The position numbers and the translations under genes are program-made. A stretch of DNA of 64,000 nt, from assembly GCF_009914755.1 (NCBI RefSeq), contig NC_060934.1; one strand, given 5' to 3'. Positions 11,966-14,320 of the stretch are shown piece by piece. The stretch is from the human T2T-CHM13v2.0 reference genome, Homo sapiens. Every line of letters starts with the position of its first letter. Position 1 is the stretch's first letter. The notes beneath the pieces are model-generated. The model searched no databases, was not told where the DNA came from, and worked only from the letters and a program-made list of their open reading frames with translations.

Positions 11966-13558
11966 TGAGGACTAAGCTCTGATTTTTTTATCTTGCCCAA
12001 ATTCCTATCTTAGGGGTCTGGGGAGTCATGCCCTACAAACCGTAAGTTCTCATGGGATGGGTTTTATTTAACCCTATATATTGTGACTTACTTTCCAAGC
12101 TGACTCTGGTATAACATTACGAGACAAAGAAGAAAATCAAAATATTTTATCCCAAAACATGTTTCTCTGCCATATCTTGAAATGGCCCTGCAAAGTTGTC
12201 CTTTGTGGGGGAAAATCTACATCTGTAAAGAATGGAGTATCTAGTAACATAGCTACATTTTTTTCTTCCAGGCCCTCCCAATCCTGAAGAGATTTAAAAA
12301 TCTAGCACCTTTTAAAGACCTGAATAGGGCCGGGCGCGGTGGCTCATGCCTGTAATCCCAGCACTTTGGGAGGCAGAGGTGGGCAGATCATGAGGTCAGG
12401 AGTTCAAGACCAGCCTGTCCAATATAGTGAAACCCTGTCTCTACTAAAAAATACAAAAATTAGCTGTGCATGGTGGTGCGCGCCTGTAGTCCCAGCTACT
12501 CGGGCGGCTGAGGCAGGAGAATAGGAGAATGGCTTGAACCTGCGAGGCAGAGGTTGCTGTGAGCTGAGATCACGCCACTGCACTCCAGCCTGGGTGACGG
12601 AGTGACACTCCATCTCAAAAAAAAAAAAAATCTGCAAAGGAAACATTTGTCATCTATCGTCTCTAAGGGCAGCCACTATGAGATTCAAAAGAACCTTGGT
12701 CTCCACAATCTTTTATCTTAACCTGAACATTCCCTTTCTATCCATCCCAGGACTTTAGACAAACTCAACCAATTATCAACCAGAAAATGTTTACATTTAC
12801 CTATAGCCTGGAAGCTCGCCCCCCCACCCATCCCCCCACCCCCCCCACCCCACCCCAGCTATCTTGCCTTTCTGGACCAAACCAATGTATTTCTTAAATG
12901 TATTTGATTGATATCTTATGCTTCCCTAAAATGTATAAAACCAAGCTGCAAGTTACAAAGCTACACATGAAGACTTAGCCTGAGACCAGTCTAATTGGTT
13001 GCAGGAGGGGAGCAATCAGAGACACTTTCATTTTTCATCTGCAAAGCAGAAAAGTGAGGCTTGCAAAAGGAGTAGCCTCTGATCCAGAAAACCAAGCTGC
13101 ACCCCGGCCACCTTGGGCACATGCTGCTGCTTCTTTTTTTTTTTTTTTTTTTTTTTTTTTTTGAGACAGAATTTTGCTCTGTTGCCCAGGCTGGAGTGCA
13201 GTGGCATGATCTCGGCTCACTGCAACCTCCGCCTTCCGGGTTCAAGCGATTCTCCTGCCTCAGCCTCCTGAGTAGCTGGGATTATAGGCGTCCGCCACCA
13301 TGCCCAGCTAATTTTTTGTATTTTTAGTAGAGATAGGGTTTCATCATATTTGATCAGGCTGATCTCGAACTTCTGACCTCAGGTGATCCACCCTCCTCAG
13401 CCTCCCAAAGTGCAGGGATTACAGGCATGAGCCACCGTGCCTGGCTGGACACATGCTTTCAAGACCTCCTGAGGGCTGTGTCACTGGCCATGGTCGCTCA
13501 TATTTGGGTCAGAATAAATCTCTTCAAATATTTCAGAGTCCGACTCTCTTCGTCGACA
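11966..13558 (+). mobile_element. MER4A/E-type solo LTR containing AluS(+) 12328-12630, a 137-bp inverted insert 12951-13087, and AluS(-) 13134-13447
   Basis: Termini TGAGGACTAAGCTCTG...CGTCGACA; 4-bp TSD CTCA (11962-65 and 13559-62); AATAAA near the 3' end. Confidence 0.92.
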
Positions 13559-13785
13559 CTCAGCTGAAGAACAGCCAAACTTGCCGGCAGAATGAGGCTG
13601 GCTCAGGTGACTAAAGAGGGGGCCGTGCTGTTTGCCAAGACACAGCTACAGGACGAGGAGCCCGCGGGAGGTAGGAAGGCAGGGAAGGAGGCTTTGAGTG
13701 GGGCTCACGTGCCTGGGGTGACTATGGAATAAACATCCAGGTGCAGGCAGGACTCAGGCTTAGGATCACCAGGAGAGAGCAGCGT

Positions 13786-14320
13786 TGAGGCAGGGAGAAT
13801 AGGGTCTGGAGGCAGGGAACCTAAGGCCGATTCTCTCTGACTACCTAGAACTGAATCAAAAGGAAAACCCTCATCTCTCCACACCCAAGTAACAAACGGA
13901 CCAGAGGCTACTCCCTTTGCAAGCCTCACTTTTCTGCTTTGCAGATGAAAAATGAAAGTGTCTCTGATTGCTCCCCTCCTTCAACCAATTAGACTGGTCT
14001 CCGGCTAAGTCTTCATGTGTAGCTTTGTAACTTCACTTCAGCCTGTGATTGGCCACCTTCCTCAGCCAATCAGACTGGTTGCAGGCCGCTACTTCATTTA
14101 CATAGCGTGTAAACCAAGTAACCAATGGGAAACCTCTAGAGGGTATGTAAACCTCAGAAAATTCTGTAACCCGTGATCTTGAGCCTCTTGCTTTGGCCTG
14201 TTCCTACTCTGTGGAGTGGGCTTTTGTTTTGATACATCTGCTTTTCTTTGGTTGCTTTGTGTGTTTTGTCCAATTCTTTGTTCAAAACACCAAGAACCTG
14301 GACACCCTCCACCAGTAACA
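13786..14320 (+). mobile_element. MER51-type solo LTR
   Basis: TGAGGCAGGGAGAATAGGGTCTGGAGGCAGGGAACCTAAGGCC...CCACCAGTAACA; TSD GCGT/GCAT (one CpG transition). Confidence 0.88.

What the first reader, a model, noticed from the sequence alone, without database searches (positions are those of the whole stretch)
12937..14032. Locally templated 137-bp inverted insertion with a 14-bp target-site duplication
Seen: within the MER4 LTR, 12951-13087 is the reverse complement of 13898-14032 in the neighbouring MER51 LTR, with about 4 mismatches in 135 bp by eye. It is flanked by a perfect direct repeat AAAACCAAGCTGCA (12937-12950 and 13088-13101). The left site reads AT|AAAA, close to the L1 endonuclease TT|AAAA consensus, and 14 bp is a typical TPRT TSD length, but there is no poly(A) tail. 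Inference: a staggered break (possibly an L1-EN nick) was patched by copying DNA or nascent antisense RNA from under 1 kb away. The result is a 135-bp inverted repeat with an ~810-bp spacer, able to form a hairpin or dsRNA, and a transfer of CCAAT-containing MER51 sequence next to the MER4 TATA-like box (TATAAAA at 12934).
Basis: partly seen in the sequence, partly recalled or inferred. Interest (0 to 1): 0.75.

Follow-up and report, generated by a model that had tools for sequence, protein, structure and literature searches.

The report
Local inverted copy patched into LTR
About 10 million years ago a break in an old retroviral LTR was patched with a backwards copy of 135 bases taken from a neighbouring LTR 0.8 kb away, a real but ordinary footprint of DNA break repair with no sign of function.

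Summary
Window 12950-13085 is the reverse complement of 13898-14033: 136 nt with 4 mismatches. It is flanked by a perfect 14-nt direct repeat at 12937-12950 and 13088-13101.

The local arm is the best match in the genome at 97%; the next copy reaches 91%. Insert and local arm share 11 variants that are rare among 28 other family copies.

Paralogues of the host LTR carry one 14-mer and no insert: 15 of 26 loci and 9 of 11 show the exact empty site, and none shows the composite.

Both elements are solo LTRs with TG..CA ends and 4-bp flanking duplications. A pol piece from the source family matches an MLV-type integrase domain, which indicates class I. The names MER4 and MER51 could not be tested.

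Arm divergence dates the event to roughly 7-15 Myr ago, with wide error. It is far younger than either LTR.

The T/AAAA site and 14-nt stagger fit an L1-endonuclease-type break. There is no poly(A) and the template is local, so I favour a DNA-templated fold-back patch. A replicative template switch is the main rival. No function is indicated.

One slip is reported: a fetch reached an envelope remnant.

The parts
11966..13558 (+). It carries two nested Alus and the templated insert.
   Evidence: Paralogues start matching at window 11966 and match up to 13558. It has TG..CA ends, TATAAAA at 12934 and AATAAA at 13513. Identity to genome paralogues is 81-89%.
11962..11965 (.). Left copy of the 4-bp target-site duplication (CTCA) of host LTR A.
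   Evidence: the flanks read CTCA|TG... and ...CA|CTCA.
13559..13562 (.). Right copy of the 4-bp target-site duplication (CTCA) of host LTR A.
12329..12630 (+). Alu nested in host LTR A (Alu1), with an A-tail at its right end.
   Evidence: It interrupts the alignment of copy A with copies B and C.
12937..12950 (.). Left copy of the 14-nt direct repeat (AAAACCAAGCTGCA). It is preceded by AT, so the site reads AT|AAAA.
   Evidence: (D13). It is a single copy in paralogues.
12951..13087 (+). Inserted segment. 12951-13085 (plus the shared base 12950) is the reverse complement of 14033-13898; 13086-13087 (AG) is unmatched.
   Evidence: It is absent from the 26 host-family loci, the 11, and local copies B and C.
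13088..13101 (.). Right copy of the 14-nt direct repeat.
   Evidence: (D13).
13126..13445 (-). Alu nested in host LTR A (Alu2). Its 29-T run (13134-13162) lies 32 nt to the right of the direct repeat. Its flanking repeats are 13114-13125 and 13446-13457 (11 of 12 identical).
   Evidence: (D10). Its best genome paralogue is only 91% identical (40 of 3170 candidates scored), so it is probably older than the templated insertion.
13786..14320 (+). It has TG..CA ends and 4-bp flanks GCGT / GCAT.
   Evidence: 39 paralogues match query 247-782 of 13540-14640 at 76-85%. One search gives the ends and flanks.
13898..14033 (-). Template arm: the stretch of the source LTR that was copied in reverse orientation.

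Best explanation
SHOWN
A 135-136-nt stretch of the neighbouring source LTR (13898-14033) was copied once, in reverse orientation, into the TATA-box region of host LTR A. Fourteen bases of the target were duplicated on either side. This happened long after both LTRs had integrated.

INFERRED, and the mechanism I commit to
1. The target was opened by two nicks 14 nt apart. The bottom-strand nick fell at 5'-TTTT/A-3', the signature of the L1 ORF2p endonuclease. This left two ends with 14-nt 3' overhangs.
2. No polyadenylated RNA was reverse-transcribed.
3. Instead, one 3' end was extended by a DNA polymerase on nearby single-stranded DNA of the same molecule. Most simply, the bottom-strand 3' tail of the right-hand end, exposed by about 1 kb of 5' resection, folded back on itself and copied 13898 to 14033.
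4. The extended end was then joined to the other end by end-joining. This left 1 nt of microhomology at one junction and 2 unmatched nt at the other. Filling in the overhangs produced the 14-nt duplication.

The product is a 136-bp inverted repeat with an 812-nt spacer and an LTR promoter split just after its TATA box. No function is indicated.
For: Local template:
- 97% identity to the local arm against 91% for the next best copy in the genome.
- 11 rare variants shared with the local arm.

True insertion with duplication:
- All 15 loci with both flanks reported (15 of the 26 listed) have a 14-nt flank overlap, as do 9 of 11 loci.

Break signature:
- The duplicated block starts exactly at T|AAAA. 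That pattern, on either strand, occupies only 0.47% of window positions and 8 sites in the 820 nt of the host LTR.
- 14 nt lies inside the 12-18-bp range reported for ORF2p-made duplications (PMC11702581, passages).

Not a retrocopy:
- There are no extra A's and no AATAAA or ATTAAA. Class 1 templated insertions carry 10-40 A's and a signal (PMC5110952, passages).

End-joining look:
- 1-nt microhomology and 2 unmatched nt.

Precedent:
- The same preprint reports that ORF2p-made ends self-anneal, give foldbacks with breakpoints at endonuclease motifs but without inserted L1 sequence, and give 'templated insertions' at insertion sites.

Geometry:
- The end of the insert that corresponds to the near end of the template (13898) abuts the right-hand repeat. 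This is what extension of the TTTT-3' end requires.
Against: - No L1 sequence or poly(A) is present, so nothing ties ORF2p to the site directly.
- T|AAAA sits inside the LTR's own TATA box, in A/T-rich sequence, so a chance match is possible, of the order of 1% per position.
- If the repeat is read as 16 nt with one mismatch, the nick moves off the motif.
- Fold-back needs roughly 0.95 kb of single-stranded DNA, and priming had no microhomology.
- A replicative template switch explains inversion, proximity and duplication in a single process without any break.
- Sequence alone cannot tell a DNA template from an RNA template.
Confidence: 0.4

Rival explanations
1. Replicative short-range template switch with no L1 involvement. 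A nascent strand copying left to right stopped after ...GCTGCA (point 1) and switched to the opposite strand at 14033 (point 2). It copied back to 13898 (point 3) and returned 14 nt upstream of where it had left (point 4). In the four-point notation the order is 4-1-3-2. The 14-nt repeat is then a re-replicated stretch, not a staggered cut.
For: - One process yields all three features: inversion, a nearby template and a flanking direct repeat.
- Walker et al. [quoted passage not shown] These create a direct repeat and look like one large insertion.
- The same paper reports enrichment of poly(dA:dT) tracts within 150 nt of point 1. Here a 29-T run begins 32 nt beyond point 1. The Alu that carries it looks older than the event, since its best paralogue is 91% identical.
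Against: - Size. In that catalogue of 1503 events the copied stretch has median length 12 and maximum 128 nt, and templates were sought only within about 100 nt. Here the stretch is 136 nt and the template is 812 nt away, or about 490 nt without Alu2.
- The switch points show only 1 and 0 nt of microhomology plus 2 unmatched nt.
- The exact T|AAAA start and the 14-nt length would both be coincidences.
Confidence: 0.3
2. The same staggered break, but patched by reverse transcription of a local nascent RNA. There are two routes. The TTTT-3' end could prime on an antisense transcript of the source LTR. Alternatively, the other 3' overhang could prime, in the manner of twin priming, on a sense transcript running rightwards through 13898-14033.
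For: - The break signature is as in the best explanation.
- A reverse transcriptase would be present at an ORF2p-made break.
- Secondary priming from the reciprocal end and template-switching reverse transcription are described for L1 intermediates (PMC11702581, passages).
- Reverse-transcribed RNA can patch breaks (PMC5110952, passages).
Against: - There is no poly(A) and no signal.
- The RNA next to the 3' boundary would offer no A's to pair with the T-rich primer (right junction).
- No transcript is annotated here.
- RNA acting in trans gives no reason for the template to lie 0.8 kb away. The templates reported in PMC5110952 are distant.
Confidence: 0.15
3. An ordinary L1-mediated retrocopy of a polyadenylated RNA (a class 1 templated sequence insertion) whose tail was later lost.
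For: A target duplication of at least 5 bp and a TTTT/A site are two of the three class 1 features.
Against: - The A-run at the right junction is exactly the 4 A's of the target, with no extra A.
- There is no polyadenylation signal.
- The right-hand repeat is intact, so a deletion that removed the tail would have had to stop at the exact base.
- The template lies 0.8 kb away and shares private variants with the insert.
Confidence: 0.03
4. Not a local copy at all. Either the composite belongs to a subfamily of the host LTR, or a fragment of a distant family copy was inserted and later made alike to the neighbouring LTR by gene conversion between the inverted arms.
For: - Inverted repeats less than 1 kb apart can exchange sequence (general knowledge).
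- Only 40 of 244 and 40 of 2168 first-look candidates were scored, and some regions of the reference are closed.
Against: - None of the 26 loci or the 11 shows the composite.
- A fragment from elsewhere would have had to land within 1 kb of a family member. With about 1500 first-look candidates in 3.1 Gb that is of the order of 1 in 1000.
- The homology stops sharply at both ends of the insert.
Confidence: 0.02

Closest known systems
Short-range template switch mutations (four-point model; Walker et al. 2021, PMC7954356, passages read; the 2017 founding paper is recalled, not read)
   Same: A reverse-complement copy of nearby sequence on the same chromosome, copied as one ungapped stretch. [quoted passage not shown] A poly(dA:dT) tract lies close to point 1.
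   Different: The copied stretch (136 nt) is longer than the longest in that catalogue (128; median 12). The template is 812 nt away, against a search space of about 100 nt. There is almost no microhomology, and the duplication starts at an L1-endonuclease motif.
Class 1 templated sequence insertion polymorphisms (L1 ORF2p acting on non-L1 RNA; Onozawa and Aplan 2016, PMC5110952, passages read)
   Same: A non-repeat-autonomous stretch inserted with a target duplication of at least 5 bp at a 5'-TTTT/A-3' site.
   Different: There is no poly(A) tract and no polyadenylation signal. The template is local instead of distant. The insertion appears only in the one reference genome examined here; whether it is polymorphic was not tested.
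Rearrangements of L1 ORF2p-made DNA ends without L1 sequence (foldbacks, templated insertions; preprint PMC11702581, passages read)
   Same: Staggered nicks giving 12-18-bp duplications, self-annealing of the 3' ends, junctions at endonuclease motifs that carry no retrotransposed sequence, and end-joining-type junctions.
   Different: Those are somatic events in cell models, mostly large-scale (kilobases to megabases). Here the event is a germline-fixed, 136-nt, sub-kilobase patch. The passages I read describe no case of exactly this form.
Class 2 templated insertions and polymerase-theta-type 'snap-back' templated insertions at double-strand breaks (class 2: PMC5110952 passages; snap-back synthesis: recalled, no paper read)
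   Same: A patch copied from elsewhere and sealed with microhomology and unmatched bases. Snap-back synthesis gives inverted copies of the end's own strand.
   Different: Class 2 events have no target duplication and use distant templates. Snap-back inserts are, as I recall, usually a few to tens of nt and lie next to the break.
L1 twin priming (5' inversion)
   Same: The second 3' overhang of the staggered break primes synthesis, giving an inverted segment and a well-kept duplication (PMC11702581 passages).
   Different: In twin priming the template is the L1 or mRNA being inserted, and a poly(A)-bearing segment is always present. Here there is none.

Membership tests
Class 1 templated sequence insertion (L1 ORF2p retrocopy of non-L1 RNA) | Duplication of the recipient sequence of at least 5 bp at both junctions | tested here: met
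   There is a 14-nt perfect repeat (D13). It is single in paralogues.
Class 1 templated sequence insertion (L1 ORF2p retrocopy of non-L1 RNA) | Insertion at 5'-TTTT/A-3' | tested here: met
   The top strand reads AT|AAAA at 12935-12940. The background frequency of the pattern is 0.47% of window positions.
Class 1 templated sequence insertion (L1 ORF2p retrocopy of non-L1 RNA) | Non-templated tract of 10-40 A's at the 3' end, with a polyadenylation signal upstream | tested here: not met
   There are no A's beyond the 4 of the target, and no AATAAA or ATTAAA in 12951-13087.
Class 1 templated sequence insertion (L1 ORF2p retrocopy of non-L1 RNA) | Template in a distant genomic region | tested here: not met
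   The best template lies 812 nt away on the same strand axis.
Class 2 templated sequence insertion (break patch) | No target-site duplication; junctions with microhomology or unmatched bases | tested here: not met
   The junction features are present (1-nt microhomology, 2 unmatched nt), but a 14-nt duplication is also present.
Short-range template switch mutation (four-point model) | The new sequence is one ungapped reverse-complement copy of nearby sequence | tested here: met
   136 nt, no gaps, 4 mismatches.
Short-range template switch mutation (four-point model) | A consistent order of four switch points; a direct repeat when point 4 precedes point 1 | tested here: met
   The order is 4 (12937), 1 (12950), 3 (13898), 2 (14033), with a 14-nt direct repeat (PMC7954356 passages).
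Short-range template switch mutation (four-point model) | [quoted passage not shown] | tested here: inconclusive
   The template is 812 nt away and the copy is 136 nt. The published maximum is 128 nt, with a search space of about 100 nt. The published limits are partly limits of that method.
Short-range template switch mutation (four-point model) | Direction of change resolved with an outgroup (ancestral state without the event) | tested here: inconclusive
   No primate genomes are on hand. Paralogues of the host LTR stand in for the ancestral state and show the empty site.
Solo LTR of a class I (gammaretrovirus-like) endogenous retrovirus: host LTR A | TG..CA ends, promoter and poly(A) signals, many dispersed copies, 4-bp target duplication | tested here: met
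   TG/CA ends, TATAAAA at 12934, AATAAA at 13513, and flanks CTCA/CTCA. There are 1705-2494 first-look candidates. Local copies B and C also have perfect 4-bp flanks, ACAT and CTTT. That a 4-bp duplication marks class I integrases is established knowledge, recalled.
Solo LTR of a class I (gammaretrovirus-like) endogenous retrovirus: host LTR A | Internal genes of the family are gammaretrovirus-like | not tested
   One candidate provirus (L055) gave 0 Pfam families in 7 open pieces. Further fetches were left out after the slip.
Solo LTR of a class I endogenous retrovirus: source LTR | TG..CA ends, 4-bp flanks, and gammaretrovirus-like core genes in the family | tested here: met
   It has TG/CA ends and flanks GCGT/GCAT, 3 of 4 identical. 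In a two-LTR copy of the family, one open pol piece matches PF18697 (MLV integrase C-terminal domain) at 30.5 bits against a cut-off of 29.2, E 2.9e-7. Another matches rve at 19.2 bits, below its cut-off of 32.6.
Repbase/Dfam families 'MER4' and 'MER51' | Match to the curated family models | not testable with these tools
   No repeat library is on hand, and the annotation file gives masked stretches without names. In print (PMC5753468, passages) both names are listed under ERV1. MER51A-E are listed with MER51-int/HERV4_I, and MER4A-E with MER4-int. This agrees with the class found here but does not test the names.

The most novel reading that the evidence does not exclude
The insert is a germline-fixed footprint of an aborted L1 integration. 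ORF2p cut the site (T/AAAA, 14-nt stagger), no RNA was copied, and the cell patched the break by fold-back synthesis on its own resected strand. If so, L1 endonuclease leaves a hidden class of poly(A)-less local inverted duplications in primate genomes. These would create long hairpin-forming repeats and would be missed both by retrocopy catalogues, which require poly(A), and by template-switch catalogues, which search within about 100 nt.
Probability: 0.4. Interest if true: 0.55.

Novelty: new member of a known kind. Interest (0 to 1): 0.35.

Why it matters
This is a clean single example of how a long (136 bp, 97%) inverted repeat can arise in one step from unrelated neighbouring sequence. 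The template, the empty site and both junctions are all readable.

It sits between two catalogued classes. It has the target site and duplication of an L1-mediated event. It also has the local inverted template, and the missing poly(A), of a template switch. A census of such hybrids could show how often L1 endonuclease breaks are repaired without retrotransposition.

For the locus itself nothing points to function. The insert splits the host LTR's TATA box from its downstream sequence. The region carries no annotated transcript or regulatory feature. JAKMIP3 starts 35.7 kb away.

Tried and rejected
Distant source. Rejected: the next best genome copy is 91% identical against 97% for the local arm, and 11 rare columns are shared with the local arm only.

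Subfamily composite. Rejected.

Reverse direction (host LTR as donor). Rejected: 39 paralogues of the source family carry the stretch as part of a contiguous match across the LTR, and host-family paralogues lack it.

LTR A and LTR B as the two LTRs of one provirus, with the source LTR inside. Rejected: each has its own perfect 4-bp flanks, CTCA and ACAT. They are 82-90% alike, no closer than A is to unlinked copies at 81-89%.

Gene conversion as the cause of the likeness. Unlikely; see the rival explanations. It remains a caveat for the date, since conversion after the event would make it look younger.

Naming the host family's class from a core gene. One candidate two-LTR locus on the X chromosome (L055) gave no LTR piece and 0 Pfam families in 7 open pieces. 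I did not pursue this further.

Alu subfamily naming and Alu dating by a reference sequence. Not done: no consensus may be built, and diagnostic positions would come from memory. I used only the best-paralogue identity.

Orthologues in other primates, human population data and RNA editing data. No tool here holds them.

Literature. Searches returned no listed paper on this locus. In search 44, none of the 8 listed papers contains JAKMIP3. I make no wider claim about what is in print.

For PMC7954356 I saw only the legends of S1 Table, S4 Fig and S5 Fig. These hold the proportions and sizes of events with point 4 before point 1, and may bear on how unusual a 14-nt repeat is.

Papers seen:
- Passages through 'find': PMC5110952, PMC7954356, PMC11702581, PMC13526784, PMC5753468.
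- Search listings only: all other titles.
- Recalled, not read: substitution rates, the link between 4-bp duplications and class I, polymerase-theta snap-back synthesis, the 2017 four-point paper, and the poly(A) need of ORF2p.
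Full report
1. THE OBSERVATION

Window 12950-13085 is the reverse complement of 13898-14033: 136 nt, no gaps, 97% complementary, 812 nt between the arms (I1). The four mismatches lie at insert positions 12981, 13002, 13068 and 13082.

The 14-mer AAAACCAAGCTGCA stands at 12937-12950 and again at 13088-13101 (D13).

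There are three refinements:
- Base 12950 belongs to both the repeat and the copied stretch.
- The last two inserted bases (13086-13087) do not match the source.
- The repeat can alternatively be read as 16 nt with one mismatch (12935-12950 against 13086-13101).

Among the 25 longest of the 101 inverted pairs found within 5 kb in the whole window, this is the only one above 93%. The others are Alu or LTR pairs.

2. IS IT A LOCAL COPY?

A search of the whole reference with the 137-nt insert gave the following hits (244 first-look candidates, 40 scored):
- the insert itself, at 100%;
- the local arm, at 97% and 226 bits;
- a copy on chromosome 15, at 91% and 187 bits;
- all others, at 88% or less.

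I aligned the insert and the local arm with 28 other family copies. In 11 columns the insert and the local arm share a base held by at most 15% of the others. At the four mismatch columns, the insert keeps the commoner base three times and the local arm once. So three changes fell on the source and one on the insert after copying. The insert was therefore copied from this very LTR, after that LTR had acquired most of its private changes.

3. IS IT AN INSERTION WITH A DUPLICATION?

I searched the genome with 12860-13125 (2168 candidates, 40 scored). Twenty-six host-family loci matched the left flank up to the end of the first 14-mer, at 93-96%. For 15 of them the right flank was also reported, and in all 15 the two pieces overlap by exactly 14 nt in the subject. 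That is an empty site with one 14-mer. For the other 11 only the left piece was reported. No locus other than the window's own spans either junction.

In a second set of 11 paralogues:
- 9 show the 14-nt overlap;
- 1 had its right-flank match elsewhere in a complex locus;
- 1 had no right-flank match;
- none contains the insert.

The two other host-family copies in the window (B and C) also have a single site.

4. THE SETTING, AND THE FAMILY

The host element is a solo LTR at 11966-13558 (+).
- It has TG..CA ends, TATAAAA at 12934 and AATAAA at 13513.
- It has perfect 4-bp flanks, CTCA/CTCA.
- It is interrupted by Alu1 (12329-12630), the insert, and Alu2 (13126-13445, minus strand).
- Its paralogues are 81-89% identical, with 1705-2494 first-look candidates.

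The source element is a separate solo LTR at 13786-14320 (+).
- It has TG..CA ends and flanks GCGT/GCAT.
- Its paralogues are 76-85% identical.

Two more host-family solo LTRs lie nearby: B at 14623-15345 (flanks ACAT/ACAT) and C at 18332-19174 on the minus strand (flanks CTTT/CTTT). All four are thus independent integrations with the 4-bp duplication typical of class I (gammaretrovirus-like) integrases. That link is established knowledge, recalled here.

For the source family, one open pol piece in a two-LTR copy elsewhere in the genome matches the MLV-type integrase C-terminal domain. The match to PF18697 scores 30.5 bits against a cut-off of 29.2, with E 2.9e-7. That places the family in class I.

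For the host family, the one locus I tried gave nothing, and I left further tries out.

The names MER4 and MER51 could not be tested, because no repeat library is on hand. In print both are listed under ERV1 (PMC5753468, passages), which is compatible with what I found.

5. AGE

The arms differ at 4 of 136 sites (K = 0.030). The substitution rates below are recalled, not taken from a call.
- At 1.0-2.2 x 10^-9 substitutions per site per year and lineage, this gives about 7-15 Myr.
- At 0.5 x 10^-9 it gives 30 Myr.
- The Poisson 95% interval for four events (1.1-10.2) widens the range to roughly 2-38 Myr at the first two rates.

A rate-free check agrees. In the same 136 nt the source had already collected at least 11 private changes before the copy, and 3 after it. 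The event therefore falls in roughly the last sixth to fifth of that LTR's residence.

The LTRs themselves are much older. Pairwise identities to their best paralogues are 76-85% for the source and 81-89% for the host. Halved for each lineage, these imply several tens of Myr. No per-copy age against a family reference was computed, because no consensus may be built.

Alu2's best paralogue among the 40 scored of 3170 candidates is 91% identical. It probably predates the event, so the arms were already about 0.8 kb apart.

Gene conversion between the arms after the event would make the date too young.

6. MECHANISM

What is shown is a single copy-and-paste of local sequence, in reverse orientation, with a 14-nt duplication of the target. 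It has 1 nt of microhomology at the left junction and 2 unmatched nt at the right, no extra A's, and no polyadenylation signal.

Two published kinds of event come close.

(a) L1-endonuclease-type breaks.
- The duplication starts exactly at T|AAAA. On either strand that pattern occupies 0.47% of window positions and 8 sites in the 820 nt of the host LTR.
- Its 14 nt lie inside the 12-18-bp range reported for ORF2p-made duplications (PMC11702581).
- Two of the three hallmarks of class 1 templated insertions are therefore met. The third, a poly(A) tract with a signal, is not met, and the template is not distant (PMC5110952).
- The same preprint reports that ORF2p-made ends carry 3' overhangs, can self-anneal, and give foldbacks and templated insertions, some with no L1 sequence at the junction.

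(b) Replicative short-range template switches.
- Poly(dA:dT) tracts are enriched near point 1 (PMC7954356). Here a 29-T run starts 32 nt beyond point 1.
- Against this reading, the catalogue's copied stretches have median length 12 and maximum 128 nt, and templates were sought within about 100 nt. The near absence of microhomology here also looks more like end-joining.

Weighing these, I favour a staggered break of the L1-endonuclease type, patched by DNA-templated fold-back synthesis and sealed by end-joining (0.4). The alternatives are:
- a replicative switch without L1 (0.3);
- the same break patched from a local RNA, by priming from either overhang (0.15);
- an ordinary retrocopy that lost its tail (0.03);
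- a non-local origin (0.02).

The geometry fits all of the first three and cannot separate them: the near end of the template is joined to the right-hand repeat.

7. CONSEQUENCES

As RNA of either strand, 132-134 of the 136 arm positions pair with the other arm in the minimum-energy fold of 12940-14045. The two arms alone give about -250 kcal/mol.

The insert separates the host LTR's TATA-like box from what used to follow it. It also places an inverted CCAAT motif 60 nt downstream of the box.

Nothing but masked repeats is annotated between 9295 and 19164, and JAKMIP3 begins at 48652. No function is indicated.

8. VERDICT

It is a new example of a known kind of mutation, of modest interest. 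Its value lies in being a fully readable hybrid between an L1-type target site and a template-switch-type insert.

Noticed in passing
window 11966-19174: Four class-I-type solo LTRs lie within 7.2 kb, each with its own 4-bp flanks: host-family A (+), the source-family LTR (+), host-family B (14623-15345, +, ACAT) and host-family C (18332-19174, -, CTTT). Three independent integrations of one family so close together is unusual. I did not assess whether it is chance or a preferred target.
   Followed up: partly
window 14681-14867 and 18916-19102: LTR copies B and C, in inverted orientation 4 kb apart, are 93% alike over 187 nt (I3) although about 86% alike overall. This may be a patch of gene conversion between them.
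   Followed up: no
window 12819-12856; about 18471-18510 and 18580-18637: A C-rich tract inside the host-family LTR (G-rich on the + strand in copy C) is present in A, much expanded in C and absent in B. It appears to be an unstable low-complexity stretch within the LTR family.
   Followed up: no
window 19164-19688 and 8309-9295: RefSeq lists two hESC enhancer features. The first (OCT4-NANOG-H3K27ac-H3K4me1) begins 10 nt inside the start of LTR C and runs into the flank beyond it, overlapping an Alu-like repeat at about 19561-19841.
   Followed up: no
window 13114-13125 and 13446-13457; 13126-13162: Alu2 has a 12-nt flanking repeat with one mismatch (G/A). Its tail is not pure: 8 non-T bases sit between the flank and the 29-T run. 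Eight CpG remain in its body.
   Followed up: partly
window 13985, 14048, 14066, 14122, 14270: The source LTR carries several CCAAT/ATTGG motifs inside short repeated units (D11 and D14). The copied stretch took one of them along.
   Followed up: no
window 13559-13785 and 14321-14622: The stretches between the LTRs found no other place in the genome at E <= 1e-5. They seem to be unique sequence, not retroviral internal sequence, and no primer-binding-site-like TGG follows LTR A.
   Followed up: partly
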